Part shown: piece by piece, positions 31,308 through 58,709 of the stretch
How the letters are laid out: every line of letters starts with the position of its first letter
Position numbering within the stretch: the first letter of the stretch is position 1
Assembly: GCF_037042905.1 (NCBI RefSeq)
Contig: NC_087251.1
Coordinates: 38,442,001 to 38,506,000, forward strand
Length of the DNA: 64,000 bases
Origin: Lytechinus pictus
Taxonomy: Eukaryota
Direction of reading: 5' to 3'
Translations under genes and position numbers: made by a program
Notes under the pieces: model-generated
Databases searched by the model: none
Told to the model about the DNA's origin: nothing
The model's input: the letters and a program-made list of their open reading frames with translations, nothing else

Positions 31308-31480
31308 GGCGGAACGATCTCGCCATGCTGCTAAGATGCGTAGAGACAAGGAGACGGAGGAGATCTCTGCGCTATCCAAGCTACTTCCTTACCCGGAGGA
31401 AGTCACCAGGAGACTCGATAAAGGCTCCATCATCAGACTCACTACCAGCTATCTGAGAATGAAGAAGTTTTCACAGAGAG
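31308..31480 (+). CDS. Exon: bHLH domain
   Basis: ttctttctctgttgatag acceptor, GAG|gtaaga donor. Translates (R)AERSRHAAKMRRDKETEEISALSKLLPYPEEVTRRLDKGSIIRLTTSYLRMKKFSQR, matching the class I bHLH-PAS pattern SRxAA.xRRxKE...LP.P......LDKxSI.RLT.SYL. Confidence 0.95.
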
Positions 31481-31542
31481 GTAAGATAGATATTGATGGG
31501 TAAGAAGTACAGTGTGTTCCAGAAAAAGGAATAGTGATTATT

Positions 31543-32570
31543 AGATATCTTAGCCCTCTCCAAGCTACTTATACTGGATGAAGTCACCATGGGGGCTAGA
31601 TAAAGGCTCCATCATCAGACTCACTACCAGCCATGGCCCGTTCTCATTACACTTTCTAAAACTAGTTTACTGGAAACCGGTTCAGGAAACCAGTTTGGAA
31701 GATCGCTTTGCTAGCGTTCCCATTTGATCATTCGAAATTTATTTTCAAAATCACCTCATGTAAAGTGATTTTGTTGCTACGGGAATGCTCTCATTGAGGT
31801 GACACGTTTCATGCGAAATTGGAAACCGCAGCATGGGCATTCTACACACAGTGTGTGGAGTAGCGCGTTCAAAATGTGCAAAGATCTCTTCCTGGAGAAC
31901 GGTTGTGTTCTCACTTACGCTAAAACCTGTTTAACGAGGCAAAGCGATCTTGAAAACTACATCGCGAGGTGGTTTTATGAACCGGTTTGGAAGATTGCTT
32001 CCAAGATCGCTTCGACCGTTCTCATTACGCATTAAACTAGTTTCAGGAAGGTAGTGAGAACAGTGTCCATGTGAGGATGAACAAGTTTTCACAGAGAGGT
32101 AGGGTGACTGTAAAAATAAGTGTTGATGGGTAAGACACTAGCCTACAGTGTGTTCCAGAAAAAGTAATAGTGATTTTTAGATATTGTGGTTCTCTCTATT
32201 TCCTTACTGGAGGAAGTTACCAGGAGACTAGATAAAGGCTTCATCATCTATCTTAGAGGATGGCGAGTTGTATATTAAAAAAAATAAATGGTAAAACTAC
32301 AATGTGTCCCATGAAAATAAGAAATATGACTGCTAGATATCACTATTATCAAATATGTTTCTGTCTATCTGAGAATGTAGAAGCTATCAGATAATGGTAT
32401 CTTCACCCTAGCCTACCTTTATTAAGTTATTCTCATATCAAATAATTCTGAATTAAGTTACAAGCTACTTCCTACAATGAAAGTTATAGAGATTGGCGAT
32501 TGTGCTTTGCCTGTATGTACTCACAAGAAGTAAAAATTGAGGCACCACCAGCCAGCCATCTCTGAATAGA
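31543..32570 (+). pseudogene. Tandem decayed duplicates of the 3' two-thirds of the bHLH exon plus donor and intron start
   Basis: ccaagctactt...gaagtcacca...gataaaggctccatcatcagactcactaccagc at 31560-31631 continues after the MITE as aagttttcacagagag|gtaggg. A third copy is at ~32179-32340 and fragments run to ~32570. Confidence 0.88.
31635..32067. mobile_element. MITE (family A), TSD CAT, inserted in the duplicated bHLH exon fragment
   Basis: Collinear with 6042-6472, with cat on both flanks. Confidence 0.88.
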
Positions 32571-34095
32571 TGGGAATTTAATTATCTTGCAGTAATTGAT
32601 CATAGATATTTATTTGATATCACAAAGGCATCAACATATAGAGGTTTTCAAAGGATACGTAAATTCTGTCTCATTTTTTTTTGTATTGTCTTGATGGTGA
32701 TTTTTTTTCCTGATTGCTAAGAAAGCATGAATGCTTGTAAGCAAGCAACCAGAGGACCGACGGCTTAAGGTCCTCTCCAAAGGACCTGGTACTGAGGATT
32801 AATGCCTTACCAAAAGGCACTAGCTTTTCAAAATATAACGTGAGAATTTATTATGTTTATAAGATGGGGGGGGGGGGGGGGGTATTGGGAAGACCATTTT
32901 GCTTTTCCTGTTTTCTCCTTTTGGGTTGATTTGTATTTTGTGAAGTCTGCAGTCTGAGGTTGTGATCGACCCGCATACCCCCAATCAAATCATTTTAATT
33001 TGCCACGTTTTGACAGAATATTACGTCTTCATGGCTATATAATTATAAATTGCTTCAGAATGCTTAGTTAGATACCTTGTCTATAAATATCACCACTTTC
33101 ATGCTCTCTTGCAACTTGAACAGTCGTCTGACCCTCAAATCTCCAAGCTAAATGGAATTAGGCAATCTTGAATAGCGAAAATTGATTAATTAGTGCCAGT
33201 TTAGCCTTGATCTACAAGCCCTGTATCCATGATTATGCATGCTTTGTTGATAACATCTAATTGATGGGGTAATCTATTTTTCAAAGACTTGATCAATAGC
33301 CCCAAAGCAGGTTTTGTATTTTCACCCCCGTGATCTTGATGTATTTATGCAATTTAGTTCCGTAAATCGGCAACCGTTTTATAGTATCTGCTCAAAAACA
33401 CTTTAATTCTGTGAATACCTTTGTGTGACATTGTTGTCGGGACTCCATGACAAATGACAGTGCAATTCAGTGGGTCATGTGTGAGATTTGCATGGATGGA
33501 ATTTGGCTGTATAAAGCTATCGTTACTCCATTCTTCGCGTAACTCCACACCAACAAGAGAGCATTTCAAAGCTCCATGCACTCATACAGTAGAGAAGGTC
33601 ATAGGCATAATTGAGTTGTATTTCATCCTTTCAAAGTGTGCACAATTGAGTAAAATTTGTATTAAGGTCATTCTCCATCCGTATATAGCGCCAATCTTGC
33701 CACCGCTGGTCTCTACACAGTATTATTGCTGTTGATGGGATGGTGTAAATACGATGGAAAAAAAAATGGGGGAAAAATGCTGGAACAAACGGGACATCAA
33801 AATGTCATTGAACTGATATAGGCTTGAATGGATGGATATAAATAACAGAATTTGATGATAGAAAAGATTAGGATATTCTTGATGTTATTTCATCATCTTT
33901 TTTATATAGTGGGATATCATTTCTTGTGTGACATCATAGCTAGGAATAAAATCAAGAGTGAAGAAAATGATAGAGTTATGGAGGGGGGGGGTAGAAAAGG
34001 ACGAGTAAGAGAGAGGGGTAGTGAAAACAACATGTTTTTTTTTTTTGGGGGGGAGGGTTGCACTAAGTAACGTAATTTCTGTTTCTGATTATGAA

Positions 34096-34481
34096 TTAAA
34101 GGTATTGTTTAATTTTGTGAGCAGCCGATTTAAAAAATTCTCAAACCAAGATGAAACATGTGTACAAGTGCATGTATTAGAACTAATAAACCCTGAAAAC
34201 AACCATTTTTGAGAATGAAAAGCTAAAACTACAAGGCAAACCCCGATTTTGTAAATAGGCGTCTTATAGACGCCTAAATAGTACACATAAGTGTATGGGA
34301 TGAAATTATGATGGTGTTTCCGGTCACTTTATATTCCAATTTTTGAAGCACTAAATAATTATTTTCAAACGCAATTTTTTTGGGGCTTCATTTTTGTAAC
34401 ATATCACAGACACAGGTGACAAGTGTGACCTTCTAGCTCAGATTTTTAAAAAGTCAAACCAATGTTAACCAATCACTTTAA
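34096..34481. mobile_element. Probable TTAA-ended non-autonomous element
   Basis: ttaaaggtattgtttaattttg ... caatgttaaccaatcactttaa imperfect TIR. Confidence 0.45.
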
Positions 34482-37400
34482 GTGTGATTGGAAAGCCGTA
34501 GAGTTAAAAATTACTTACAAAGCTTCTTTTATGGGGTAAGCACAGTTTTTTTTTTATTGTTCAGTTGAGTGAAAGTGGAGCAATCATACATTATAATACA
34601 CTATAATTAGGGACATCTATGGACCTTGAAGAACTGTTTCCGTTGTGTAATCATTGAAAAGACCTTAACGAGAAGTCTAGCATTAGCTAAAGTCTGGTGT
34701 AGTTGGGTAAAAATTTGCTAAATTTCGTATAAGCCTAGATGTTTGAATGGTAGACAATATTTAAGGGGTTAATTATGATCCAAGCAGAGAAAAAAAAATC
34801 ACACAGGGGATCGGGGCAATGTTGCCTCCCAGGTGTTTTATAATTTCATTTCTAGATCTTTAGTAGAGTCTCTTCTTTAGCAACTCCTTTCCTTTTTGTT
34901 TATGTATGTTTGAATGTTTGCGTCATTCTTTTGATTCTCTTTTTGAATTACCTTGAATTTTTTTCAATCCATCCTATGATTCAATCCGTATTTCTGTAAT
35001 TCTTGTTCAGTTTAGTAGTTAAAATGTATAAAGCACATTCAATTTCAGTTTCAATTCAATTTCAATTGATTTATTGTCCATTAAAATCAAACACAATTTT
35101 ATGAGGGAAAGGCTGATTTGCATTTGATAATTCATCTGAAAAGGCATATTTTGATTATTATCGGGTGCAGATGTGCATGTGTTCATGCATTCATAATCCC
35201 CATTGAGTTGGTAGATCAGCGTTTGTCTCGAAAAGTAGGTCAAAAGAGAAGTGAATGGTTGTCTGAAGAAACTGCATCTTAAGACGTCTTTCTAAGGAAA
35301 GATTGTTCCAGTGTCTGTCTATTTTTACGTCTTGCAGGAAACACCTGTTGATAGAAGAACTTCTTTTAAAGGAAATATCAGCCCATCGGAATAGGCTTCT
35401 CGTTTTATTCATGTATCCATTAATGACCATTAGGACTGAATTCAAGATTCACATAAGCCCAGACTTTTTAGATTTCATTGGAGAATTTTTTATACGAAAG
35501 GATATCTTATTTCGTTGATGAGGTGCACTGAAGTAAGGGGGATCAGAAATTCTGAGGAGATTTGTGACATTTTCAGTTGTCTTCACTATGGGGCAGAAAA
35601 TGAGGTATAAATACTTGTTTTTAAGTATTATATGAGTCATTACACCCAGCTGATTTTCTTTTTCAATATGATAACCCAGTATACTACTACTTTCAAAACA
35701 GAAAAAAAAAATCCCGGTTGAAATGTGTAAATCACAATGAATCCTGGCTAATTATGTATATGCAAACCATTATTTTTGTACATGTATGTCATCTCCCTGC
35801 AGAACTTTGTGAATATGAAATTTGTAATATATGTATATATATACATGTATATATATATATATCTGCAGTTAAGGCAAATTTTTTGTCTTCTTTCAATGTT
35901 CGAAATGTACCTTAACGCCCTCTACCTTCGACTTAACGTCTAAATGTGTATTATAACAGAATAAACCCATTCATAGACTTCGCCCTTACTTAGGATGTAT
36001 GCATATATTATATGTATTATTGAAATTGATTTGTGAATGAGATTGATTGAACTTTAAATTTCAGTTCCTTGAATTAAGGTCAGACAATAGGCAATGAACA
36101 CAATGGCGCAAATATTCACTAATGAATGATACGCGCCGTATAAGCTAAAACAACAACAACAACAACAACAGTTTTGAATTAATTTTTTTTTTTAGCTGAT
36201 AATGTTTACAGAATATTCTCTGCATGATTTGCACTTTTCAGTCATGACATTTTAATCATATATTGTATTATTTGAGAAGTCAGGCTACACTCCACATTAA
36301 TTTTCTACCATATATACAATTTGGACTGTGTATGTTAATTTATGAAAAATTCATGTTGCATTCTTCAGTCGTATACTGTACGTGCAACACAAAACCCTTG
36401 GAAGTCGGATATAAAAATGCATCCCCATGTTCTATAGCACGGTATAATGAAGACGCTGAGGCACTCAAAAGCTCGCCTAAGTGCAATTTCAGGCTCCGAA
36501 ATGGAGGAATAGAGAGGGTTAGGAGAGAGTAGGAAAGCGGGTTAATCTCATTTGGCTGTCTGCTCTTGTAATCTACGGAGTAGTGTTCTAGCCCTATATC
36601 TGTATGTCACATCTCATCATTAAGAACATCACACAGAGGAGAGTTTGAGTCATGAAGACACAATCACATCTGATCACCTTCTATTACTCCTGCTCTATGT
36701 CCCGACTTGACTCTATCCTCCGTCGTTGTCGTCGTCGGCAACCCTCGACTCGAAGTGACGGAGGGAAAAAAAAAACACATAGCATTCCCATCGTGGTAAT
36801 AACTCTGTATGGTGTAACTGGTAGATTTTATCAAGGATAAAGAAGAAAGTGTGTTGTGGTATTTATTACATATATGAAATGTTACTTTGTCACTGACCAG
36901 GAGAAAATGATTTAAATTTTTTACTATAATCTAATGAAATTTGAATTAATGGGGTTTTTTATGCAGTGTGCACCTTATACCTTTGAGAAGCCCATAATAC
37001 CAAATTATTACGGTAAATAAAATGAATATGGATAAACAATAAATGATAAATTAGTGATTAGCTTTATTTGTATTGTGTTCTCTCCATTATATTGATTTGC
37101 TGAATTAGAAATAAAAAGTAATAAAATCAGTGAACTTAATATAGATCACTTAAGATCAGTTATTTGTAGTTTCAATCTGTAGTACGTAGGCAATAGCCAA
37201 GTATCGGCCTTTCATTGTTATGCCATTGTTCTTTGCAGGGGTCATGAAATTACAAATATATCAATATGAGATTGACTTTATAATTTTTTTATACTATTCA
37301 TCATTGTTTGTCAGTCAAAGAAGAGTTTTTCTTTCCTATTCCATTCCAATTAAAAGAAATGAATATCAAATTTGTGTGTATGCTATAAATTGAAAATTCT

Positions 37401-40400
37401 ACATACATGTATATTTCTGTGTGATAATTGTGTGTTACAACTCTGTGAGTCATGTGATTGTAGGTGCACGGCAGTGTAGAGGCTGACTGTGACAAAGAAT
37501 CCATCGTTCAGATAATTAGAGATTTGCTATATCATTGCCTTAATCAATTATCCAGTAGCTCTTGAAAAATGGGTTTTTAATAGAGCTTGCCATCAGCTTT
37601 CACATTGGGATTATCCCACAGTGAAGAAACTTGTCTATCATTAAAAAATATGATATTTCGTGGGTACGATCAACTAGCTTATATGTTGTTTGGTGAGAGG
37701 TTTAATTGTAATGATATCCCATTTAAATTGTTCAGAGTAGGCTATATAGGCCTAATCTTCCAAAGTGAAGATCATGGGATCATGATATAACTGAGGAGGC
37801 GATGGTACGTCTCCTTACTTGAAAACAGAAGGTTGTCATTTGCTTTATCTTGAGTTTTATTGAATGTTTAAGCTTTGAGCTACAATGTGTTGTACTAAAA
37901 CAATCATGTTCAATTTTATTTAATTGGAAAAAAAATGAAGTGGAAATCTCTATGACTTAAAGTGTATTCACATTTGATAATTTCTATATTATCTCTGGAT
38001 TGGTCTTTCTGATTAATAGGTTGATGATTTACGAAGTAGCGTGGTATTGAAGAAAAAATAAAATGAAATAAAAAGGAGCAACTCTTTAAATGAAAGAAAA
38101 AGCCCACAAATTTTACAATTACCCAATTGTATTGGGAGGGTGGGATAGCCCCTAAAAATAAAATTATTTCCTATACCCTGATCTGATAGGGGGATAATCT
38201 GAAAAGTTTTCTGGCCATCTTCCCTCAAAAGTTCTCTTCTATGCCATCCATTGGTCCCTGTATAGTCTCTACCAGCACAAACTTTGTATCGCTTCTTTAT
38301 TGTTTATTTTCATCAATTTCCACTTGATCTAGCTTATTTAGTTGTTGCCAGTACCAGTTCAGTTCTGTCAATTACCAGTGAAGTTTGTATTTGCGTGGGG
38401 GTATCCAGATGCATGCTGGGTCATTCGCAATGCAAAGTTCATCCAGTGGTCACGAAGCAGCAAAGGTTTAGCACCATCACCAATCCGACCCAATAGCTCT
38501 TTTGTCCTCAATGTGCATTGATGAAGTTAGGCATACAATAATTAGCTATGAATTATCAATTGACTCTGCAAAGGGGGGGGGGGGGGGGTGATTAACTATT
38601 TAATTCATGCAGCAATGAAGCAAAACTTCTATTATCTACTAATTGAAAAACCTTCCTTTACTTTAAATGAGTTTATTCCCGGAGGCTGATGAAAAGACGA
38701 GTTTATACTTGTTGATTTGGAAAGAAGAGAATTAATTGATATTATTCATAAGTGCCCTTTTATACTTTCGTTGTGAAATTATATAGTTTTAGTTGTGTGA
38801 TTTGCTTTTTTATCTTAAATCCTAAGTCTTTATTATTTCCACCAGTTATAATCCAATTTCAAAGATATTAATGGTGTTGTTGTAATAAAGGAACTGACAG
38901 TCTAATTAGAGAATTACAGCAAGATTTTCTTTTTATTGATTATATTTCTATTTTGCTTTATTATCATGTAGCATCATAATTGTTAATACACAATGTTGTG
39001 CACAAAATTAAGCCATTACTGTATATCAAACAAGTGCGTGTTTGCATTACTCACGTCATATACAGGCTGACTCATGCTATTTAATTAGTTTTCCTTGGAA
39101 ATGTGAAAAAAATGCATTCATTGTTTCAGTTCATGAGCATTTTAAGCAGAGGTATCCTGTAAAAAAAATGGATGAAATTGAAAATACAATACAACCTGTC
39201 TTTAAGACCACCGAAGGGAAATAGAAAAAAGTGCACACTGGAGGCAAGTGGCCATTATAGGTAGGTTATATAGCACATTCCTTTAGAATGGGGACAAGTT
39301 TGGTGGCCACTGAAGACAGGTTTCATAAAGGATATGTAATGACCACCTAGACAGGTTTTACCATGGTTTTACCGTGTAATGATAGTCATTGGCACTGGCT
39401 TTTCACAGATTGATGAAAGTTGTCGTAAAATTTAAAAGAGAGACTATGGCTGCGTTATGATTGTCTTCACTGCTGCATGGATATCCATGACACCACACGG
39501 TGTACCAATTATCAAGTCTAAGGGCCTGCTGACGTATAACGTATAACCCTGATACTTCTGTCATGATAAAGATGGCATTCCTATCAGTTTATATTAATTG
39601 CAAATCAATGCCAAATTATCAGTTAACAACGAGGCCAGTGGAGTACCCTCACTTGTCAGTGCCGGCATGAAATCTTACACAATTTTTTGTCAACCAACGC
39701 TTTCATACACCTTAAATGTTTCTTTTTTTTTGCCTTGAACATTAACTGGTATGATATTTTATTGTCCTACTCAGCAGGAGTGATCTAGTCCCCGTTTCAT
39801 AAAAGATGCAAATTTTCAATAACAGTTAAAAGCTACTGAAATTCTTCAATTTGAATGGCTGATGGGAAACTTGTTAAAGATCGTCATGTTTTTATTTTCA
39901 TCATAAAATGTCTTAGAGACGGGACCCATGCAGATCGGAGAAAAAGTGTAAGGTACCCGGTCACATAATAGAGAACATACATGCAACTTTCTGAAATGGG
40001 ATTCTCGCTTTCAGAGTTCCTTAACAACATGTGTGATTTTTTCCAAGAATTACATTAAAAAAGTGCAGTGTTGATGAGGTCATCACACTATCCTGTTGTA
40101 TTATCATGTCTAGAATCATGACTTTTTAAAGAAAAACATACTTTTTATTATCAGTTAAAATGAGACTTTTTTTAAGTTCCTGGTATAGTCATTGCAGGGT
40201 CCCGTGCAAGAAGGAATGGCGTTGGGTTTCATGTTAAATATGTAATGGCAGATTTTATCCTTGGGTATTATCTGCTGGTATATCGTCAGAATACCTTGTT
40301 TATCTCTGCCATTACTGGCTTTTATAATTGCAATCATGATTTCAATTCATTTAAATGTTATTTTTTAATTAAGAATTTAAGTGATTGCATGTGGGTTCAG

Positions 40401-41019
40401 CAAGGGGATTCATCACTCGGTCTTTTGTATTCCTATGCATTATTAATGTATGCGTTTATTAACAAGGTCATTTTTTCATACTGTGTTCATCTCATGATGT
40501 TTATATTTTGATGATACCTGTATATATTCCCAATCATGATGAACATTATCAGTGTAAAGTAAAATCATCCTTAGTAATAATTTTTCTTGTTGATAGAGGC
40601 ATGATTTATGAGAACAGTCATGGTTGTTCGATTGCAGGAATGAGTTGTTCAAATAACTCTATATTAATTAATTCAGTGTTCTTTATTTTCGTTCTTCTTT
40701 AAACGTTAAAAGTTATGAATAGACTTGAAGAGGAAGTCCACCCTGGCCATTAGTTGGTTTTAATAAAGCAGAAAAATTAGGGGAAAATGAGTCCATGGAC
40801 TATTTTCAGTTAGTTAACTATAGAACGTAAAAGACTGGATCTGCAGTTAAAATGCAGATCGAAGGAAAAATCAGCTGATACCTATAACTAATGAAACACC
40901 GGTTTATCAATTGTGACGTCACTGCGCATGGCATAAAATATGCGCAGATCATAATGCGCACAAACATATCTGTGGAACGTCCTTAAAGAACTAGCTGAGT
41001 ACAGGGTCATAGTGATGTT

Positions 41020-41295
41020 TTTCTTCCATCTGGTAGAGCTCCATGAGGTTCACCAAACTTCTTCACAGAATTTTGAAATTTTGAGTAGAAAATTATTTAC
41101 GCTAATTTATACGAAATGTATTCATAAATCACAGAAAATGCCTTTTCTTTATTTGTTGACCGATATTGATTTTTTTTTGTTCCATCTGAGAGCTATACGA
41201 GGTTCACCAAACTTCTACACAGAATTTAGAAATTTTAACTAGAAAATTATTTATGCTTATTTATACAAAATTTATTCATAAATCACAAAAATGCT
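41020..41295. repeat. Tandem duplication, 2 x ~140-155 bp
   Basis: ttccatctg..agagct...gaggttcaccaaacttct.cacagaattt...agaaaattattta.gct.atttatac repeated. Confidence 0.85.
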
Positions 41296-41860
41296 TCTTC
41301 TCTGTCATTTCTTCATCAATTTAAATTCTGTTTCCTCAATATATGTCTCCAATATAATTCACTACAATGTCAACTGGGCTGAAATTAAAAATTGTGTTAC
41401 TTTTTTTTGCGAGATGCCGGATGAGCTCCACATCATTGATGAGCTAGTTTAATTAATAAAAAGATGGGGAGTGATTATAATAAGTTAATTTTAATTTCAA
41501 TCACAGATACGTGACATGTGATTTTTTATGGTTTCTTCAGTGTGAGAATTGTATCAAGATGGCCTTATTTCATGTTTATCTTTATTATTTCTTTAATTTT
41601 TTAAAATAAAATGATGAATCTTTTAATAAAATATTCGCTTCTTTTAAAAATGTTATTATATGAATACTTTGTATGGAAAAAAAATGTTGCGTTCCATTTC
41701 AAGACAATGTATTTTTCATGTTTTTCTTGGGAACAATGTTTTGTTTTATTTATTTTGGGAATAAAAATGTTGAATACTTTGTTCTTCCTCAAAAAATGAT
41801 GTGTTTTGTTTTTCATGTTGAAAATAAGATAAACACTTGAATCTCTTGTGTTTTTTGCAG

Positions 41861-41976
41861 AAGGAACAGCGTTATTGGATGAGCTGAAGAAAAAAGCGAT
41901 TACAGCTGGACCTACAAATGAATCCTGTAAAGATAACGAAAAGTCACAAGTCAATGAAGGTGCTCTTATGCTTCAG
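41861..41976 (+). CDS. Exon: bHLH-PAS linker
   Basis: ttttttgcag acceptor, CAG|gtaata donor, phase 1 to 0. EGTALLDELKKKAITAGPTNESCKDNEKSQVNEGALMLQ leads directly into the PAS-A start ALNGF. Confidence 0.85.
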
Positions 41977-43791: not shown

Positions 43792-43881
43792 GCTCTGAAT
43801 GGATTTATACTCTTTGTGTCGCGAAAAGGAGGGATTCTTTACGTCTCAGAAAACGTAGGAAAACAGATTGGAATTCACCAG
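43792..43881 (+). CDS. Exon: PAS-A N-terminal part (not in ORF track)
   Basis: cattccag acceptor, CAG|gtaata donor. ALNGFILFVSRKGGILYVSENVGKQIGIHQ matches the LQALDGF...G.I.YVSE.V...LG..Q PAS-A motif. Confidence 0.93.
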
Positions 43882-44602
43882 GTAATATGACATCAATTTT
43901 ATCTCACTTTTTTCTTGTCATTTAGAGAATCGTTTAGCAGATCCCTATCATTCTTTGAATTACATACAAGCGAATTGTCTGAATACGCAGACTATGAATT
44001 CAAGGCATCTGCATTTTCATATGTAAAATGATCTCTTTTTTTGACGTTTAAAATTTTATGAAAAAGTTACTATTTAAAAAATGATCACTAATTGACACGT
44101 TACATTTTATTGGCAAATGCTACATGCGGTCAGTGGCAATATGAATTGCTTTTAAAGAATTTCCATCAGATTTTCGTATGAGCCAATGAAGGCATAGACA
44201 ATTAATAATCAATTCTGTCATGTTGTCGCCTGGTTGTCATAAGGGCAGAAGGTTGTGCTTGTACCGCAAATTTAAATTCTTCTGCAGTTAACATAAATGC
44301 ATGAGCTAAAGCATGTGCTATGTGAATGTACAGCACCCTTCTATTTGACCAACAAGAATAGCAATTGATTTACGTATAAATCATAATGACCTGCTGCAAA
44401 CTAGGCAGCAATGTGTGTAGCAATCTTTATTAATTTCAGAAGAATTCAAAAATTCATTCTGTTTTGCTAAATGCTTCTAATCGTAGGTGGTTATTCTTCA
44501 CATGTTTTTCAGTCAATCAATATCATCTCGATTTTGAATCAGTTAATATCGACAGGATTTTCAATCAACATCAGCATGATTGATTTTCAATGAAAATCAT
44601 GA

Positions 44603-45141
44603 TTTTTGTCTCGCCTGCATAGCAGAGCGAGACCATAGGCGCCGCTTTTCCGACAGCGGAGACGGTGACGGCAGCATCATCAACATTGAAATCTTAACCA
44701 AGGTTAAGTTTTTGAAATGTCATAATAACTTAGAAAGTATATGGAGTTAGTTCATGAAACTTAGACATAAGGGTAATCAAGTATTACTAAACATTCTGAA
44801 GAGTTTCAGGCCACATGACCAAGGTCATAGGTCACCTAGCGTCAATGAACTTTGGCCATGTTAGGGGTATTTGTTTAATTGGCATCATACCTTAGAAAGT
44901 TTATGGACCTCGTTCATGAAACATAGACATAAGGGTAATCATGTATGAATGATTGTAGTGCACACGTCTTAGGTCACATGATCATGGTCAAAGGCCATTT
45001 TAGGTCAATGGACATAGTATTTTATTATCATATGAATGTTTTCTTTTTTCAATAATTATTCAATAGCTGTTTTCAAATTCAGCATTGCTGCTATATCAAA
45101 TCGCGTAATGCAGGCAAGACTGCCAGAGGCATTCCACTCGT
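44603..45141 (+). mobile_element. Tsp/pearl/HINE-like non-autonomous element
   Basis: Starts in a T-run with gtctcgcctgcat and its nearby partner gcgagac. Has a short GC-rich repeat tract, two ~160-bp internal tandem repeats (cttagaaagt.tatgga...gttcatgaaac.tagacataagggtaatca at ~44730 and ~44892) and a 3' inverted copy atgcaggcaagac followed by a small hairpin (tgccagaggca). Confidence 0.75.
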
Positions 45142-45352: not shown

Positions 45353-45524
45353 TATGACATGATAGGTAATTCCATCATGGACTTCATCCATCCCGATGAC
45401 CAGAAGGAGCTGGCCAAACAGTTTGTAGTTCAGTTTCCCGGGCACCAGACCTTCAAGGGTTACGGCATGGAGAAACCCGACGACTCCCCTACTGCAATGA
45501 ATATTAACTTCTTCGACGAAGCAA
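45353..45524 (+). CDS. Exon: PAS-A core plus loop
   Basis: tctccacag acceptor, A|gtgagt donor. YDMIGNSIMDFIHPDDQKELAKQFVVQFPGHQTFKGYGMEKPDDSPTAMNINFFDEA contains the G.SI.DF.HP.D motif. Confidence 0.93.
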
Positions 45525-48737: not shown

Positions 48738-49536
48738 GGGTGCGTTTATCCGCCACTTTTTCACCCTAGAATCATGATCTGAATCATGATTCAAATCATG
48801 ATTCTGCAGAATCACGATTGCGTTTAGTCGAAATTGAATATAATCATGATTAGAATCACAAACATGAAACACGAAAAAAGGGGCGTTTGGAAAGACGTTT
48901 CTGCACAATCACGTACGAAAATGTTCGAATAAACGATATCGTGATTTGAATCATGATTATATGACCTCACTGTGTCGGGCTACTTTCGGTTTGACTCTTG
49001 CCAAGCTCAAGGCTCTCTATATGCTCATTGTATGTACATGATTACTCTGCATTTCTTGTCATGTTCAAATTCTGTGTTGGTCATCGCATCGTCCACTACT
49101 TTTCATTTTTTGGTCATGTCTTCAACTTCAAGTTCTAGTAAATGAATTAACTAGACAGACAATGATCTCAGTTGTTGTTGAGTATAGAGTGTCAATATTA
49201 AATTGGATCTACGCTGAAATTCACTTCCGAACACCATTTTGGATAAACTAACAAGATGAATAGAAGCATATGGACCCTATATGATAGAAGTAAACAAAAT
49301 TAGGTATAGACTGAATTCTGGAAGAAAAAGATTTTTCGAGAGCCGAAACACGTACGAAAAACTTCCTTTGTCAAACTGCGCACTAGTGATGCGCACTGGA
49401 TTGGCCGGAATCTGAGGAGAAACAGCATTGGAATGAAGGTCGTCTGAACGCTGATTCTGTGATATCGTGATTCATGTTTGTGTTTTGAATCATGATTCAA
49501 ATCATGATTCTGGCTTGAGGTCGCATAAACGCAGCC
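48738..49536. mobile_element. PIF/Harbinger-type (Tourist-like) MITE, TSD TTA
   Basis: tta|gggtgcgtttat ... ataaacgcagcc|tta, with multiple subterminal GAATCATGATTC palindromes at both ends. A TWA TSD is typical of PIF/Harbinger. Confidence 0.85.
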
Positions 49537-50582
49537 TTAGGCTTTTAAGATATTCCCCTTTTCGTTTATTGTCCTTACTGATGTCATGAATGTCTTTAAA
49601 GATTTTTATTGATTTATTGATTGATTATTTACATACTGTTTTAATTTATATACTGTATATATTCACTAAACATTGTTTCTTTTGACTGCCAATACATTTT
49701 AATCAACATGAATATCATTTTTTTTCCATTAATATTGTACTGATATGTTTCTTTGTAAGTGATGTAATGTTAATTTTACTGACAAAAAGTGGCCTGTAGA
49801 CATATTGTATAGAGAAAACTCTAAACTTTGCCTTATTTAATTCTCCAAGCCAAATTATTTTGGTTCTTCACTTCTGTTTGCTAAGTTACTATATTTTCCC
49901 CCTTTTTCAGAAGTCATGTAAACATTTCTTTGCACTTTTTAGTATAATGTAGAGGGGGATATGACGGTAAAATGCGATGTGAAATGATTGTGTATATTTT
50001 CTTTCTATACTTCAGTCAGGAAACTGATAGTTTCCTCCTCTCTTGCATCGGAGGAAATAGAATCAGTCTCTTGCTTGAAAAAACAGACACGAATTGAAAG
50101 GAAAATTGAGAAAAAGAAGACATAGACTTGTGTATCAAAGTGGAAATAATAAGTGAAAGCACATCTGGTTTGTGTTTGGATGGACATTGGATATAAGCAG
50201 ATATTCACTTCAAGAAATATTGCACTTTTTTTTATGGAAATCATATTCAAAAACAGTTCTTGTGTAATTGGAGCTGGTCCCTGGTCTTATTCAAGAAAAA
50301 TTGAAGAAAAAAATATCCTGATTGGGGTATTAAAAGATGGGTTTGATAAAGACCACACACAGTTCATACAAATTTCATGTGGTATTTGTGCATCATATTT
50401 AGTGAGTACATACATGTAAGGCAATCTTATCAAGCAGTTACTGGATTATTCTTTTATTGTTAATACATGTGTGAGCTTTGGTCAAGTGATATTTTCAAGA
50501 ACCATAAGTGGAATAGGTTTTTTTTTAGTGTTAACGATTAAAGTCTTAAAGATCTACATTTAGATATGATCTCTGCCCCAAA

Positions 50583-51096
50583 GGGCCACTTCCTTTGACG
50601 AGTGGATATCAGGCGCGACCAAAGAAACACATAAAAAAGATATCTTTTTCAAGATTGGGCACGTTACGTACATAATGTAATAAGGATGTCAAAAACACTA
50701 AAATAATGAAAAAGGGGTATATATTTCGCTAGAAAAGCTACGTGTTTACGGTCAAATTTGTGAGGGTATAATAAGACTGAATACTTTATAAAGGATGTAC
50801 TTTTAACCCCAACACTATGTGTTCAGAGTCCGATTTAAGCGAGGTGTAGGAGGTGGGGCAGTACTTGGTGAAGCCAAATGGGTAAAGCCAACAGCTGTGA
50901 CATAACAATTAAAATATCGCTGTACTTGTTTAGGGGGTCATTTCAGGGAATAATTGTCAAGGGTACCATTTTGTTTCCAATACTTGTTAAAGCGCACGCC
51001 AATACTTGCATTTTAAGAATACGGAAAATACTTTTAGGGTGCTTTTCAAAACCCCATGGTCACGCCTGGTTTCCACTCGTCAATGGAAGTGCCCCC
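50583..51096. mobile_element. Non-autonomous DNA element with ~40-bp TIRs
   Basis: gggccacttcctttgacgagtggatatcaggcgcgacca mirrors tggtcacgcctggtttccactcgtcaatggaagtgcccc. Confidence 0.85.
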
Positions 51097-51489
51097 TCCC
51101 ACTGGGATCTCTACAGCAATTAGTACACAAGCTTGTCATATTATTAGCAATAACACCTAAAATGATTCATTAATGAATGCATGCTTTGGGGATTTACACT
51201 TAATATTGTTTCATAGCAAGGTTTATTCAATTACAAATCAAAATATTCACATCATTTTGTAATAATTGGGCCATTCCATGGAATATGTGCATCTGACAAC
51301 CTATATTTGGTACTTTCCGGCAATGATTCCTCTCTGCGATCTAGTTCGTATGAAGGTTGTTATGCATTGTAATTATCTTGACTTGAGTAGTTAATGAAGA
51401 GCTGGAAGGAGGAAGAGAAGTGGAGCTCGAACGTACAAAAAGATTAATTGTATTCTAGAATTGTATAGGCCTAATCATTATCATCAAAT

Positions 51490-52214
51490 GGTTTTATTTC
51501 TCTTGTTCTTATGTTGTAAACTTCTCAGGGTTTCTCAAGCTGAAAGACGCAAACAACAGTAATTAAGTTGTTATTATTATTATCATCATAATTGCAATCA
51601 ATTTTGTTCTCTTTTCTTAGGTTGTGACCCTCACTAGGCATCTCAAACTGAAGGCACGCAGAAACCGTAATTTTTATTATTATTATTATTGTGATGAATT
51701 GTTGTCGTCCTTATCATTTTTGTGATCAACTGTTTTGTTTTATATTATCATCATTATTTTGATCAATTTTGTTCCCTTTCTTAGGTTGTGGACTTCTCTG
51801 GACATCTCAAGCTAAGAGGACAAGCAACAGTAATTATGTTATCAACATCACTGTGATCAACTTTGTTGTTGCTATCACCAATATTGCGATCAATGTGGTT
51901 ATTACCATCAATATTGCAATCAATTTTGTTCTCTTTCTTAGGTTGTGAACTTCTCTGGTCGTCTGAAGCTGATCAATTTTGTTGTTGCTATCACCAATAT
52001 TGCAATCGATGTGGTTATTATCATCAATATTGCAATCAATTTTGTTCTCTCTTAGGTTGTGAACTTCTCTGGTCTTCTGAACCTGAAAGGATCAAGCAAC
52101 AGTTATTCTGTTATCAAGATTACTGTGATCAATTTTTGTTGTTGCTATCAGCAATATTGCGATCAGTGTGGTTATTATGATCAATATTGCAATCAATTTT
52201 GTTCTCTTTCTTAG
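51490..52214 (+). repeat. Tandem array of duplicated 3' splice site plus first ~30-48 nt of the 52215 exon
   Basis: caattttgttctct(tt)cttag|gttgtg with AG ending at 51620, 51784, 51941, 52055 and (functional) 52214. A more decayed copy lies at ~51500-51562. Confidence 0.92.
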
Positions 52215-52399
52215 GTTGTGAACTTCTCTGGTCGTCTGAAGCTGAAAGGATCAAGCAACAGTAAGGGGTACTGCGTGGAGGGCTTGATCTGCCTGTGCCG
52301 TCCTATCCAACCGCAGCCCATACTAGAGATTCGCATGGATGGCAACATGTTCATGAGCAGACATGGTCTGGATATGAGCTTTACATTCTGTGACCCAAG
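52215..52399 (+). CDS. Exon: end of PAS-A, linker, start of PAS-B
   Basis: ttctctttcttag acceptor, AG|gtacgt donor. VVNFSGRLKLKGSSNSKGYCVEGLICLCRPIQPQPILEIRMDGNMFMSRHGLDMSFTFCDPR contains F.SRH.LDM.F..CD.R. Confidence 0.93.
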
Positions 52400-52404
52400 G
52401 TACG

Positions 52405-52640
52405 TAATGACGGGTTATAAGTCTCCAGGCTTTGAACCATGAAGCCTTGGGTTCATATCCCACAGCAGCACTTGCATCCTTGGCAAGACATTGATCTACA
52501 TTTGTAACTCTCTACCCAGGTGTAGTAAATGGGTAAAAGGAAGAAATATGTCGATGCTCGAGTGCCTGATAAATGCTTTTTGTTTGGCTAAAGCCAGGGT
52601 TATAGTATGTAGCACTTAGGAACATATAAATATTGCATAT
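52405..52640 (+). mobile_element. Degenerate tRNA-derived SINE immediately after an exon donor
   Basis: B-box-like gggttcatatccc, then tccttggcaagacatt...ctctacccaggtgtagtaaatgggta core. Confidence 0.7.
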
Positions 52641-52793
52641 TATATTTATTCTATTATTATCTTTCAAAGTTCAATCTAAATTTGCATCTGATTGGCTCAG
52701 AAAAAATAGTCAATGAATCCACTAATTATTTGTTGGTGCTCACTAATGTTTATGAAATGCTTCCTTGATCTTTTTTATTTAGAAATAAATGAT

Positions 52794-52901
52794 GGAGCAA
52801 ACTTGTTTGTCCTGTCATTAATAATAAAAGAAAGGGCAAACTTGTTTGTCCGGTCATTAATGATAAATGAAAGGGCAAACTTGTTTGTCAAGTCATTAAT
52901 T
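52794..52901. repeat. 3 x 36-bp tandem repeat
   Basis: gcaaacttgtttgtc..gtcattaat repeated three times. Confidence 0.85.
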
Positions 52902-53011
52902 ACAAACTGCAATGAATTAAACTCATTCTTGTTAATTTTATCTTATGGCAGTGTGTTAAATTTCACGTTGTGATTGTGTTGGTGATGAAACTTTCAATCT
53001 TTGCTATGCAG

Positions 53012-53118
53012 GATCATAACACTAGTAGGCTATGAACCTCATGAAGTGATCGGGAAGACTGCTTACCAATTCCATAATCCGCTGGATGCTCGCAAAGTCA
53101 GTGATTGTCACTCCAAAC
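53012..53118 (+). CDS. Exon: PAS-B core (not in ORF track)
   Basis: ttgctatgcag acceptor, C|gtaagt donor. IITLVGYEPHEVIGKTAYQFHNPLDARKVSDCHSK contains the GY.P.E..G...Y.F....D motif. Confidence 0.93.
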
Positions 53119-54729
53119 GTAAGTCTAGCTTCATCTCTCATTCGTCAGCAAAAGGAGATTAAAACCCTCAAACCAGATTATGAAACAGAAAAACCCAAAG
53201 AAACAGATTAATGAAAGTTTGAGAATAATTGGATAAATAATAAGGAAGTTATGAGCACTTAAATGTTGAGATAATGAATGCTTTTGATATCCTCCCATTG
53301 GCAATGTGAAATGAACATAGATGCCACACATGCATATCTCCCCCTTTACTTGTATACATATTGTACTTAATTCGTCACTTAAGTTAAGTCTATCTGTATA
53401 TCAGTTATTAGTTATTTATTGTAAAGCACTTTGATCATATTTTTGGTAAAGTGCTATATAAGTACCTGTTATGTATGTATGTATATCAGGGACCCGTTGC
53501 ATAAAACTTATGCCATAAAAAAAAAACTCTGGCAAACAAAATTATGCCATTGAAAATTACACATTAAAAAAACTCTGGCAAAAAATTTGCAAGATATTTT
53601 TTAATGGCAAAAACGATGGGAGGGCAATGTAATAAATATTTTTAAGAATATATATCCTTGAAAAAAAATTGGAATTAATTGGAATGAGCAGTTGGGGGGG
53701 GGGTATGAATTTGCCATTATCCAAAGGGGAGATTTATTAATGTTGGATATCACATGTCTTGGTCACATTAATCCCATTTGTAAGATCTCCTTAGCATTAG
53801 TTTTTTGGACAGTCAAATGCTCATAATCTTTTGTATTGTTTGTCCAAGTGTTTTCAAGCTTTCATTGAATTTAAGCTCTGATTGATATGTTTTCATACAA
53901 ACTAACTAATTCCTAGGGTTTCATTCTCCTTTGTTAATAATTGTAGTCTCATCACAGCTTTGTTAACAGATATACAGCAGGATTGCAGCTGTATTCAAAA
54001 GACAAATCATATAAACATGAGTATAATATAAATGTCACAGTGTTTGATGTAGGTCAGGACTTGGGTCATGTATATTGAACCAAGGTCATCCAGTTTGACT
54101 GGAACATTTTGAGCGCTTGTGTATGTTCATACATCAATGTCAGTTTTGAAACCAGTATGAACTATATACATTTGAACTGAGTAATATCAAAAATTCTAAA
54201 TTTCATTTATTTATTTATTTATTTCAAATATTTAAAAGAAGGGTAGCCCAATCAGAAACAAGCTGGTTTTCGTTGGGACCCTTCGTAAACAAACACAAAT
54301 ATAAAACATGGTGACATATTCTGGATCAATAAAAATTAGGAAAACATGATTGAAGTAACTCCTTGACTCTTGTTGCTTTAACAATCAATGTAATGATTTT
54401 TTTTTAATTCAATGTTTAAGATATGTTTAATAATAATAATTATTTTCCAAGTCCTCAGGATGATAGAATGACCGGTATGAAAAGAACTTTGGGGGCCAGA
54501 TGCAGAAAGAGTTGCGTTATAAAGTCAAAATATCAAGCGCAGGTCCCAAATGCATGCTGTTCATTGATTGAAAATCAAGTTGCGTTTGATATTTAGAGTT
54601 GTGTTTGATTGCATCTCTTTCTGCAACTGGCCCCAGAAGTAATAATCTGTACTGTCAGTCTCATGAGAAGTCAATGTTTGAATACTATTTTCTTCCAAGT
54701 TATTCTCTTTCATCCCTTCTTTTCTCCTG

Positions 54730-55220
54730 TATTTATCTGTCTGTACTATCTTCCCTTTTATATTCATCTGTTTATTCATCTATCTATCTTCTCTTTGTAT
54801 TCATCTGTTGATTTATCTATCTATCTTCTCTTTTATATTCATCTGTTGATTCATTTGTCTATCTTCTCTTTCATATTCATTTGTTGATTCATCTATCTTC
54901 GCTTTTATATCCATCTGTTAATCTATCTATCTTCTCTTTTATATTCATCTGTTGATTCATCTATCTTCGCTTTTATATTAATCTGTTTATCTATCTATCT
55001 TTATATCTATCTATCAATCTATCTATTCATATGTTGATTCACCAATGTATCTTTTATATTCATCTGTTCATTCATCTATCTATCTTCTCTTTTATATTCA
55101 TCTGTTCATTCATCTATCTATCTTCTCATTTATATTCATCTGTTCATTCATCTATCAATCTTCTCTTCATATTCACCTGTTTATTAATCTATCAATCTTT
55201 TTTATATTCATCTGTTAATC
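54730..55220. repeat. Pyrimidine-rich degenerate minisatellite (~35-40 bp unit) abutting the PAC-exon acceptor
   Basis: ttcatctatctatcttctcttttatattcatctgtt repeated more than 10 times. Confidence 0.9.
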
Positions 55221-55231
55221 CAATGGTGCAG

Positions 55232-55376
55232 TGATTGTGAAGGGAAGTAGCATGAGCAAGTACTATCGCTTCTTGGGGAAGCTGGGAGAATGGGTGTGGA
55301 TGCAGACGAAGGCCACTATCATCTACAACACAAACAATGTGGCGCAGTATGTGGTCTGCATGAATTATGTTATCGG
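55232..55376 (+). CDS. Exon: PAC motif of PAS-B (not in ORF track)
   Basis: ggtgcag acceptor, GG|gtgagt donor. LIVKGSSMSKYYRFLGKLGEWVWMQTKATIIYNTNNVAQYVVCMNYVIG. Confidence 0.93.
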
Positions 55377-56173
55377 GTGAGTTCAATGCACTTTGTGTTT
55401 CCAGTGAATAATAATGATAATAATACATGTAGTACTGCCACCACCACCACCAGAGGTTGGTAGGTCTGGTTTTGGGGGTTGTGGGTGGGAAGTTCCCTTT
55501 TTTCAATTCGAAATTCTTTTTTTTTGGCCGTTATGATTCCTTCTTTTTTTAGCACAAGGTTGGCAGCTCTGTTGATTAAGCTAAAGAATTATACATTCAT
55601 ATCTTCTGAAGATGACAACTATAAAAGAAACATTTGCCTCATTTTTTATTTTCTGATTTGATTTTGACCCAATATTGTTATCTCAATTATCTGAGTTGAT
55701 ATGTGTAGAAAATTGAGTATTTTATTATGTATATAGGGCCTTTAAAAAGTGCATTTGCCTATTAGAGTGTATTGCATAATACAGCAAAAGCTGACATATT
55801 CCCCATCTAGGTTTATGTAAAAAACTTGCTGCGCAATTTCATGACAGTTGGCAAAGTCTAACACAGTCTAATCAATAAAGATGACAAGAAGTATAATGGA
55901 TGTCTTTTCTTCATAGGATACCAGAAATATTTAACGTTGGGCCGATATTGCACTCATCCCTGAATTGTGCAATATTCCCTAAATCATGGAATATTTCTGG
56001 TAACCCATTTGAGCCTTCGAATATGATATAAATATTCAGGTCTTGGTGAGGATGATGACTTACCTACTTGCTTATTACTTAAAAAACAGGAATGCTATAT
56101 TATTTGAAATGTTATGATGAATTAGTCGGAAGATTAATTCATTTCTCATCTTGGTATCATTTTGGTAATGTAG

Positions 56174-58709
56174 GAAAGACGAAGGTGAACGTCACTTGCT
56201 GATGGAGCAGATGCAGCATTCGTTGCAGGGAGTCCTGATGAGCGATTCGGATAGCTGCGGGTCTCCCTGTACCCCAGGCACACCTGGAACCCCCGGTACC
56301 CCCACCACCCCTGGGACCGGATCGTGCTCGGACTTTGGAGAGGCCTCTCCCAAGATTGTCGAGCTCAAGGAGGAGGAGTTGGCAGAGCTGGTGCCTCAGC
56401 CGGTGAGGGAAAACCAGGTGATCTTGAAACCAGTCGATGAATCAAGCTCGGTGTCCTTCAAGGATCTGATTAAGGAATCTAAGCAATCCAAGGAGGAAGT
56501 CGCAATGGATGTTTGTGTGAAAAGTGATAATGATGAGGAGAGCAAGATGCAATGTGATGACGCGGTTGGTGTTGCTGACAAAGAAAATTGTCAAATGGAG
56601 AGCGATGCCTCGTTTGAGACCATGGAAGACAAGCATCCCTTCGCAGAGGAGATTGTGCCGTTAAGTAAATCTGATTCGCCCGCGAGTGATGTGGACTCAT
56701 TGTCCAGTGGTGGCTCAGGGTCGGTTTGTTCGCCGCCATCTCAAGAGCATAAGAGACTCAGTAGCTTCGGTGAAGCTGAAGAGAGGGAATTGCTGAACTT
56801 GTTAGACATTACGACAGATAAGCCCTTGTCTCCTATGGGTGATCTCTCAAGGATATCGACATTGTCATTTACCGTACCGAGTCCAGATAATCTCAGCCAG
56901 ATTCTTAGTAGTCCGGGCACGACAAGTCTTTGTGCAGACGGAGAGGTTCAAAGTCCCAACATGTCATGGCTGGTGGAAGACGATGAGGTTTTCACTGATA
57001 AGTTAAAGTGTCCGGCCAATAACATTCTTCTGAACTTACTGAATGAACCTCCCATCACAGAAAAAATGATGAAGCATGAAAATGCACATCAAACAATTAA
57101 ACAATTATTACTGTCTTCGGGGAAAAACACAGACACTTGCAGAAATGGGAGTGGGTTGCCAGCTGATCTAGCTGACTTTTCTTTGGAGTACGCTCCGAAT
57201 GGATCATGCAACCAGACACCTGTTACGATTTCACAAGGAGATGAGTTCCTTGGTGGTGTCACCAAGGTTTCTGAAGGAACCACATTGCCAGACATTGTAG
57301 AACCACAAGTTACCAATGCTATGAACTCTGCTTCTTTACAAACTTCTATCTCAGTGGCGCAACCCACCAGCTCTTCTCAGTATTCAGATGCAACTTCTGT
57401 GGTCAACAGCTTTGTGGCCCCTGTATGCAGTGGACAGTCCATCCCACCCACCAGCAATGGTAATCAGGTACCTGTAACCTCCTGCGACTCACATGTTGTT
57501 ACTGAAGGCATGTCTAAGCTGGAAATACAGGACCTTCAGAATCAAAAGACAATGCATTCAATGTTGAAAGCGCTGCTCACAGGAGCTGAAAAGAACCCTC
57601 TGTCCACACAAGTTCGCTCAATTCCTCAACAACTCCAGCTTCCTGTCAGTGATGGTATGGACATCAACGATGTGTTAGGACCCATCACGCCGTCCACTAA
57701 AGCTGCGGTTGATACGTTAGACTCGCTTATCCAGGACCACACCAGTCCTGACAGAGATTTCTCTATCAACAACAACAGGATTAATCACGATGATCTGACA
57801 CTGTTGCAACAACAGCAGCAACAGAAGGAGATCTTGGAAAGGGATTTCATGCGACAGCAGCAAATGTTGCGGGACAATCACCGGCGCCAGCAGCAGATGA
57901 TGGAGGAAGAGCACAGGCGGCAGATCATCCAGCGCCAAGCTTTGCAACAGCAAATGGCCAAACAGGTGCAGCTCAAACTTGTAAATGGGAGTGTTCAGAA
58001 CGGATTGCCGCAAAACATACCGCATAATGGTATCACCCAGAACGGAACGCCGCAAAGCAATCTGCTGCAAAATAACTTGCAGCAACAGAATGGACTACCG
58101 CAGCAGAACGGTCTCGCTGAGCAGAACGGATGTAGCCATGGGCCAAATGAAAATGGACTTGATATCACAGGAATCAGTGATTTTGACTTTCAGCAGCAAT
58201 TGAATGCTGTCATAAATACCCCTCCTCAGCAGCAACAGCAGCAGCAACAAGCAATGTTCCAATCCAATGGTATGTACAATTCCTTGCCAAACTACCACCT
58301 CCCTCCACAACAGCAGAATGGATTCTCCAGGCAACCAGCGCCATACCAGCAAGGAAGCCCTCCCATTGGCCTCTCATCGTCGCAGCCCAACAATTTCCCT
58401 CTTCAGTCCAGCCAGAACTCTAGTTTATTAGCTGCCTGTCTCATGTCTACCTCACAGCATCAACAACCGCAACAGCAGCAGCAACAACAACCCATCCAAC
58501 AGTCGCTTCCACCACTTCCCTTCCAGCACCCCAACAACTCCTCCTCTTCAGGCTTCAACCAGCAGTCCTCGCCCGTCTCGCATACCACGTCAACGTTAGC
58601 CCCGTCAGATTGGCAGGGTAGGGTTTACATGGGTAGATCGACCGGCCCTTCTCCCGACATGAACAGCTTTCCAGAACCATGTGTGCTTGGTCAGCAAATA
58701 CAGTTCTAA
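56174..58709 (+). CDS. Terminal coding exon (2536 nt): acidic/Ser-Pro-rich then Gln-rich putative transactivation region
   Basis: taatgtag acceptor gives G-KDEGERH-LLMEQ in frame with the 837-aa ORF 56196-58709. Elevated GC, poly-Q runs, TAA stop. Confidence 0.92.

What the first reader, a model, noticed from the sequence alone, without database searches (positions are those of the whole stretch)
31308..58709. Divergent orphan class I bHLH-PAS factor: HIF/SIM/Trh mosaic without oxygen-sensing motifs
Seen: a complete bHLH-PAS-PAS protein whose basic region reads RAERSRHAAKMRRDKETEEISAL. The strongly conserved equivalents are KEKSRDAARxRRxKE in HIF-alpha/Trh and KEKSKNAARTRREKE in SIM (recalled from family knowledge). 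PAS-B has HIF-like SRH.LDM.F..CD.RI and ATIIYNT, but SIM-like NMFM and YYRFL, and PAS-A has a Trh-like RMKS and long loop. In the 845-codon tail I find no LxxLAP(Y/F)I prolyl-hydroxylation degron and no CEVNAP-type C-TAD; the nearest matches are only SLEYAP and TSTLAP. Inference: this is a separate invertebrate HIF-alpha-like/orphan lineage, probably an ARNT partner with altered half-site specificity that is not controlled by PHD/FIH. Orphan bHLH-PAS genes have been reported in some invertebrates, so it may be poorly characterised rather than wholly new.
Basis: partly seen in the sequence, partly recalled or inferred. Interest (0 to 1): 0.7.

Follow-up and report, generated by a model that had tools for sequence, protein, structure and literature searches.

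The report
Overlooked ancient relative of HIF-alpha
This sea urchin gene is the counterpart of a little-studied oyster transcription factor related to the oxygen sensor HIF; it lacks HIF's oxygen-switch motifs, and its family, published as limited to molluscs, annelids and brachiopods, also occurs in echinoderms, acorn worms and amphioxus.

Summary
The gene is real and spliced. Nine GT-AG exons give one frame identical over 1214 aa to an uncharacterised Lytechinus pictus protein, and five junctions are seen in three RNA runs. There is no ODD or C-TAD. It is neither an orphan nor a mosaic. It is the ortholog of oyster CgHIFalpha-like (Wang 2016), the same oyster gene that Bao 2017 named LtclockHLH and called lophotrochozoan-only and Clock-derived. 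[quoted passage not shown] Nesting in bilaterian HIF is rejected; a sister position to HIF, SIM or Trh is not. Four relatives carry a separate canonical HIF-alpha. Best reading: an ARNT partner on HRE-type sites without canonical PHD/FIH control. New here: the wider range, two conserved tail boxes and a near-frozen PAS-B pocket.

The parts
1135..1209 (+). Upstream coding exon 1a (phase 2 to phase 2), matches the Diadema ortholog's N-terminus; its own start-codon exon was not found in 1-1130
   Evidence: tblastn 62% over 29 aa, E 5e-12; AG/GT seen; no start exon; no RNA laid here
16421..16515 (+). Alternative first coding exon 1b, matches L. variegatus isoform X1
   Evidence: 31 of 32 aa identical to P0067; open frame of 1246 aa with the core; no RNA laid here
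26519..26526 (+). Coding end of alternative first exon 1c (start codon of P0001)
   Evidence: junction to 31308 in 8, 2 and 10 reads of X20-X22
31308..31480 (+). bHLH exon
   Evidence: PF23171 E 1.4e-11; junction reads
32077..32098 (+). Possible first exon of a bHLH-less isoform, inside an intronic copy of the bHLH exon's 3' end
41861..41976 (+). bHLH to PAS-A linker exon
43792..43881 (+). PAS-A exon 1
45353..45524 (+). PAS-A exon 2 with long loop
46084..46205 (+). PAS-A exon 3
52215..52399 (+). End of PAS-A and start of PAS-B
53012..53118 (+). PAS-B exon 2
55232..55376 (+). PAS-B/PAC exon 3
56174..58709 (+). Single tail exon with stop: acidic, Ser/Pro-rich then Gln-rich; family box 1 (LP-x-D-hydrophobic-x-DF, P0001 residues 701-712), three LxxLL boxes including the LLTG box near residue 840; no ODD or C-TAD

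Best explanation
A class I bHLH-PAS transcription factor of the CgHIFalpha-like/LtclockHLH family, an old lineage beside HIF, SIM and Trh/NPAS1/3. Shown here: gene structure, expression, family membership, and absence of ODD and C-TAD. Shown for the oyster ortholog only: ARNT binding through bHLH-PAS, binding to an EPO HRE, and HRE-dependent activation. Inferred: the urchin protein pairs with ARNT, binds ACGTG-type sites shared with HIF, and activates through short amphipathic tail boxes (the acidic LP-x-D..DF box and the LxxLL boxes). With no canonical hydroxylation sites, its activity would be set by promoter choice, by competition for ARNT and perhaps by a PAS-B ligand, not by PHD/VHL and FIH. 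It would therefore give oxygen-independent input to part of the HIF regulon.
For: 46.5% identity over 404 columns to CgHIFalpha-like, E 1e-113 (P0072 = ANB50083.1), against 27-55% per domain to HIF/SIM/Trh. The nearest solved structures are NPAS3 (214 bits), HIF-2alpha (203), HIF-1alpha (200) and NPAS1 (187), ahead of AHR (149), CLOCK (99), ARNT (91) and NPAS4 (46). In the 29-row ML tree HIF+SIM+Trh are split from the family at 94/97, and at SH-aLRT 100 in the 58-row quick tree. The AU test rejects urchin protein + echinoderm HIF (p 4.6e-63) and family + bilaterian HIF (p 0.016). A mollusc-built profile of tail box 1 finds 10 deuterostome members (E 5e-8 to 0.026; window 0.026) and 0 of 7 HIF/SIM/Trh controls. 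AP[YF]I in 0 of 41 and EVNAP-type in 0 of 41 proteins. Separate canonical HIFs with a Pfam C-TAD exist in Diadema antillarum, Acanthaster planci, Amphiura filiformis and Branchiostoma belcheri. In the basic region, Arg-Arg is kept in 17 of 17 family rows, the preceding Ala in 16 of 17 and the Ser in 12 of 17. Oyster experiments: PMC5096685.
Against: No functional test exists for any deuterostome member. The oyster protein rose 1.94-fold under 1% oxygen and some of its mRNAs about 8-fold. The oyster EMSA used the recombinant protein with no ARNT mentioned, which is unusual for a class I factor. Family monophyly is only 68/66 in the careful tree with two distant flatworm AHRs as outgroup. LxxLL enrichment is not specific: 40 observed against 8.65 expected in 24 family tails, but also 11 against 2.8 in 8 HIF tails. 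Three basic-region positions differ from HIF/SIM/Trh. No Lytechinus HIF, SIM or Trh was retrieved (one search lists the best 120 of 1848 hits; no genome held).
Confidence: 0.62

Rival explanations
1. It is a second hypoxia-responsive factor, stabilised or induced by low oxygen through an atypical degron or through transcription (the oyster paper's reading).
For: Oyster protein up 1.94-fold in hypoxic HEK293T cells, mRNA isoforms b and c up about 8-fold (PMC5096685). Tail box 1 loosely resembles the distal half of the CODD, and 5 of 23 members have a Pro three residues before the box's conserved Pro.
Against: The CODD resemblance is at chance level: 103 of 200 column shuffles score as high. The window protein has no Pro in that register. 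CODD profile scores are negative or absent for all 25 family proteins scanned. The oyster result is from overexpression. RCGTG near the first exons is 0, 0, 3 and 4 per 2.2 kb against about 2 expected.
Confidence: 0.3
2. It is a ligand-gated sensor in the manner of AHR or Met: a small molecule in PAS-B controls ARNT pairing.
For: PAS-B is the most conserved domain in the family (mean identity 65% against 51% for bHLH), the reverse of HIF, SIM and Trh. At 22 positions taken as pocket-lining, the window protein matches amphioxus at 22 and oyster at 21, while the Diadema and amphioxus HIFs match at 14. The positions were mapped from HIF-2alpha by recall through the alignment.
Against: No cavity was computed and no ligand is known. 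Conservation could reflect protein contacts. Within Ambulacraria all domains, not only PAS-B, are more conserved than in HIF. The oyster protein was active in HEK293T cells with no added ligand.
Confidence: 0.2
3. It pairs with ARNT but reads a different half-site from HIF.
For: The family has Asp after the Arg-Arg pair in 16 of 17 rows, mostly Lys or Gln where HIF/SIM/Trh mostly have Arg, and a variable residue where they have Asp/Asn.
Against: The oyster ortholog, whose basic region is further diverged, binds the EPO HRE, is not competed by the mutant site and drives the HRE reporter 25-fold.
Confidence: 0.2
4. It is an early duplicate of HIF-alpha (sister to all HIFs, cnidarian included) that lost ODD and C-TAD.
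For: AU test not rejected, p 0.134. PAS-B is 44% identical to HIF against 34% to Trh. The LLTG box resembles the last C-TAD helix.
Against: The best trees put it outside all three families. Sister to SIM (p 0.156) or Trh (p 0.101) is equally unrejected. The C-TAD resemblance is matched by 3 of 60 shuffles.
Confidence: 0.2
5. It arose in lophotrochozoans by duplication of Clock (Bao 2017).
For: Reported linkage to Clock in some genomes (PMC5381572). Two members carry automatic CLOCK-like names.
Against: Members occur in deuterostomes and Priapulus. CLOCK scores 99 bits against 181-214 for the near-full-length HIF/NPAS1/3 chains. CLOCK itself was not in my trees.
Confidence: 0.02

Closest known systems
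CgHIFalpha-like of Crassostrea gigas (Wang 2016, PMC5096685; ANB50083.1) = CgLtclockHLH (Bao 2017, PMC5381572; XP_011448459)
   Same: bHLH-PAS-PAS core 46.5% identical, PAS-B pocket positions 21 of 22, tail box 1, an LLTG-type box, no LxxLAP or C-TAD asparagine, several 5' isoforms.
   Different: Deuterostome host; longer Gln-rich tail (1217 against 888 aa); the LLTG box is internal rather than terminal, and its homology is weak (the mollusc profile misses the window protein); box 1 lacks its second half in echinoids.
HIF-alpha (HIF1A/EPAS1/HIF3A, Sima)
   Same: Domain order, Pfam bHLH_HIF1A hit, PAS-B 44% identical; the ortholog binds an HRE. Intron positions look like those of HIF1A (recalled, not tested).
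   Different: No ODD or C-TAD; outside bilaterian HIF; coexists with a canonical HIF in four relatives.
SIM and Trachealess/NPAS1/NPAS3
   Same: Class I factors without an ODD; bHLH 54-55% identical; NPAS3 is the best solved-structure hit.
   Different: A separate group in every tree; Owenia has both a family member and a Trh-group protein.
Sponge and ctenophore HSN-like proteins (Mills 2018, PMC5800844; also the Amphimedon gene in PMC1828162)
   Same: [quoted passage not shown]
   Different: Orthology was not tested: no named sponge or ctenophore sequence was retrieved.
Amphioxus bHLHPAS-orphan / Met group (Li 2014, PMC4066832)
   Same: Invertebrate bHLH-PAS group said to be lost in vertebrates.
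   Different: That gene has a 2418-nt CDS, BMAL1 as best human hit, and groups with Met. The Branchiostoma members here are 1312-1341 aa and fall with this family. Its sequence was not compared directly.

Membership tests
class I bHLH-PAS | bHLH + PAS-A + PAS-B in order | tested here: met
   Pfam; PDB
class I bHLH-PAS | Heterodimer with ARNT | not testable with these tools
CgHIFalpha-like/LtclockHLH | Groups with CgHIFalpha-like apart from HIF/SIM/Trh | tested here: met
   Split 94/97, 100, 98.6-99.8 per domain; the family's own stem is 68/66 with the AHR outgroup and 91 for 18 of 20 rows in the quick tree
CgHIFalpha-like/LtclockHLH | Shared tail box 1 absent from HIF/SIM/Trh | tested here: met
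   weak for the window itself (E 0.026), strong for hemichordate and brittle star members
CgHIFalpha-like/LtclockHLH | No LxxLAP ODD, no C-TAD asparagine motif | tested here: met
CgHIFalpha-like/LtclockHLH | HRE binding and activation | not testable with these tools
   Basic-region residues are compatible
CgHIFalpha-like/LtclockHLH | Linkage to Clock | not testable with these tools
   No genome held; the gene fills most of the window
HIF-alpha | CODD motif L[D/E]x[L/R]AP[F/Y]I (as given in PMC5800844) | tested here: not met
HIF-alpha | C-TAD (PF08778) | tested here: not met
   0 of 19 members, 0 of 5 against 4 of 4 canonical HIFs
HIF-alpha | Nests in the bilaterian HIF clade | tested here: not met
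   AU p 0.016 and 4.6e-63; sister to all HIF not rejected
SIM | Nests in the SIM clade | tested here: not met
   SIM 99/100 without it; sister position not rejected
Trh/NPAS1/3 | Nests in the Trh clade | tested here: not met
   Trh 99/97 without it; sister position not rejected
CLOCK / Met / NPAS4 / AHR | Closer to these than to HIF/SIM/NPAS1/3 | tested here: not met
   Bit scores only; of these only AHR was in the trees, and Met was not compared

The most novel reading that the evidence does not exclude
This is a fourth, unrecognised branch of the HIF-SIM-NPAS superfamily. It split before HIF acquired oxygen sensing, may be the bilaterian survivor of the sponge/ctenophore HSN-like lineage, was lost in vertebrates and most ecdysozoans, and senses an unknown small molecule through a PAS-B pocket that has barely changed since the protostome-deuterostome split, feeding the HRE regulon independently of oxygen.
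Probability: 0.15. Interest if true: 0.8.

Novelty: new member of a known kind. Interest (0 to 1): 0.47.

Why it matters
Two papers describe the same oyster gene under two names and with different origins, and one restricts the family to lophotrochozoans. The sea urchin gene and its relatives make the family at least bilaterian in age and add a bHLH-PAS gene that is not among the ten in the amphioxus survey. Databases label members as HIF1A, EPAS1, 'similar', NPAS2 or CLOCK-like, which can mislead invertebrate hypoxia studies. A sea urchin member allows knockdown and genome-wide binding tests of whether an HRE-binding factor without an ODD acts beside HIF, and bears on what the pre-HIF ancestor did.

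Tried and rejected
Own-genome search: no genome is held, so separate HIF/SIM/Trh genes in this species were not checked; one search listed no Lytechinus HIF among the best 120 of 1848. Mosaic origin: rejected by per-domain trees. SLEYAP and TSTLAP as degrons: the first Pro is not conserved, and neither site scores against the CODD profile. Tail box 1 as a CODD remnant: chance level, 103 of 200 shuffles (that script crashed in its last part, which was rerun). LLTG box as a C-TAD remnant: 3, 4 and 1 of 60 shuffles as high, a lead only. LxxLL boxes as a family hallmark: also enriched in HIF tails. HRE enrichment near first exons: none. The careful 58-row tree did not finish in two runs, so the quick tree and a 29-row careful tree were used; the 29 rows dropped included the four long-branch family rows, Owenia and P0021. 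Ten of 184 rows were dropped for low coverage. ESM Atlas gave only generic bHLH-PAS clusters. A single-exon structure prediction was useless (pLDDT 49); no fold search, cavity calculation or complex prediction was run. The run index listed no holder on record as RNA; raw-read runs were laid instead. Earlier scan notes: nothing found. Outgroups beyond two to four flatworm AHRs (NPAS4, CLOCK, ARNT, NCOA, Met, sponge HSN-like) were not available as session sequences, which leaves the root open.
Full report
Observation. The window holds one large animal gene on the + strand. Nine exons from 31308 to 58709 give a single open frame that is 100% identical over 1214 aa to P0001, named in NCBI as an uncharacterised Lytechinus pictus protein. 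[quoted passage not shown]

Family. A PAS-B exon search returned 21 of 21 candidates from echinoderms, a hemichordate, molluscs and unnamed records. The core search gave 65 hits among 2855 candidates; 41 of them, at 35-100% identity, formed a group that adds amphioxus, and the rest were one Trh-side protein, four flatworm AHRs and bacterial PAS proteins. The search of 1.84 billion representatives and the cluster look-ups added Owenia, Paralvinella, Lingula (partial or fused model), further gastropods and Priapulus. Priapulus is long-branched and its placement is moderate (SH-aLRT 84-91). One member's cluster contains ANB50083.1, oyster CgHIFalpha-like; window against oyster is 46.5% over 404 columns. 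The supplement of Bao 2017 shows that CgLtclockHLH is the same oyster gene. That paper lists the family as 'Lophotrochozoan only' and infers duplication from Clock. No named vertebrate, arthropod, nematode or cnidarian member appeared, but only 30 proteins were looked up by name, so these losses are not established.

Position. FastTree on 174 rows, the quick mixture-model tree on 58 rows and the careful tree on 29 rows all separate the family from HIF+SIM+Trh (0.984; 100; 94/97), and each of those three is recovered. Reference groups were assigned by motif and tree, and only some rows carry names. AU tests reject the urchin protein as an echinoderm HIF (p 4.6e-63) and the family inside bilaterian HIF (p 0.016). 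They do not reject a sister position to all HIF (0.134), SIM (0.156) or Trh (0.101). The only outgroup was distant flatworm AHR, so long-branch attraction may affect the root, and the family's own stem is weak (68/66). Each domain alone gives the same split, so the 'mosaic' look is best read as retained ancestral residues (inference). Diadema antillarum, Acanthaster planci, Amphiura filiformis and Branchiostoma belcheri each have both a family member and a canonical HIF-alpha with a C-TAD. This could not be checked for the window's own species.

Oxygen motifs. Among 41 proteins scanned (40 family, 1 not), none has AP[YF]I or an EVNAP-type motif and one has an isolated LxxLAP. SLEYAP lies at the end of a conserved tail box (LP-x-D-hydrophobic-x-DF-x-hydrophobic-x-aromatic) whose following proline is not conserved. 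This box is shared by molluscs and deuterostomes and absent from 7 HIF/SIM/Trh controls; it was not detected in the amphioxus or Priapulus members. Its likeness to the distal CODD is at chance level. A second box (LxxLLTG) occurs in many members; its likeness to the last C-TAD helix is not significant, and the mollusc profile does not find the window's copy. LxxLL boxes are enriched in family tails (40 against 8.65; 19 of 24 tails) but also in HIF tails (11 against 2.8; 6 of 8), and not in SIM or Trh.

Mechanism. For the oyster ortholog, Wang 2016 report ARNT binding by yeast two-hybrid through bHLH-PAS, EPO-HRE binding by EMSA, 25-fold HRE-dependent reporter activation, no LXXLAP and no C-TAD asparagine, yet a 1.94-fold protein rise in hypoxic HEK293T cells (HIF control 1.87) and mRNA induction. 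The window protein keeps the Ser, Ala and Arg-Arg of the HIF basic region; that these contact bases is recalled. I therefore infer an ARNT partner on ACGTG-type sites that activates through its tail boxes and is not switched by canonical hydroxylation (0.62). Atypical hypoxia control remains a live rival and is partly compatible with this reading (0.3). PAS-B is the family's most conserved domain, unlike in HIF, SIM and Trh, and 22 pocket-equivalent positions chosen by recall from HIF-2alpha are nearly invariant from urchin to amphioxus and oyster. That hints at a ligand or a fixed partner; it is an inference with no structure behind it.

Literature seen. PMC5096685: parts 2-5 of 7 of the text (methods, results, discussion). 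PMC5381572: passages and three supplement searches. PMC4066832, PMC1828162, PMC5800844: passages only; their tree figures and supplements were not seen and might include members of this family. All other papers: search listings only. Nine searches found no paper describing a deuterostome member or equating the two names, but the library lacks most subscription journals, including the sea urchin genome transcription-factor catalogues (recalled).

Verdict. A real, expressed gene and a new member of a known but neglected family. The added value is the range extension, the link between the two names, and testable features in the tail and in PAS-B. Interest 0.47.

Noticed in passing
window 31544-31634 and 32069-32248: Degenerate intronic copies of parts of the bHLH exon (76-89% identity). 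One supplies an ATG and donor (32077-32098) matching the start of NCBI's bHLH-less isoform P0068, which parallels oyster isoform d.
   Followed up: partly
window 51498-52264 and 54730-55222: Tandem repeats (periods 273 and 38) that copy the acceptor regions of the exons at 52215 and 55232; they could give cryptic splice sites.
   Followed up: no
window 21882-22620, 25184-25511, 10501-10767: Six copies of a 123-bp repeat, an (AATG)n microsatellite of about 83 units, and a perfect 133-bp duplication.
   Followed up: no
window about 29900-30400, 32700-32880, 44600-45000: Intronic repeats that attract many RNA reads from elsewhere; the loose ends at 32824 look tRNA-derived, suggesting a SINE (inference).
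   Followed up: no
window 6049-6472 and 31641-32067: A dispersed repeat of about 430 bp, 81% identical, in two introns.
   Followed up: no
proteins P0229, P0121, P0022, P0023, P0113: Family members carry misleading names or models: 'MON2 homolog' (Lingula), a 2276-aa model (Elysia), 'CLOCK-like' and 'HIF1A' (Branchiostoma), 'NPAS2-like' (Priapulus).
   Followed up: partly
proteins P0035, P0112: Two unnamed, long-branched proteins fall at the base of the family side of the tree and might represent deeper lineages.
   Followed up: partly
proteins P0014, P0025, P0027, P0038, P0234: These five of 23 members have a proline three residues before the conserved Pro of tail box 1, the spacing seen in the HIF CODD; the profile test was not significant.
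   Followed up: partly
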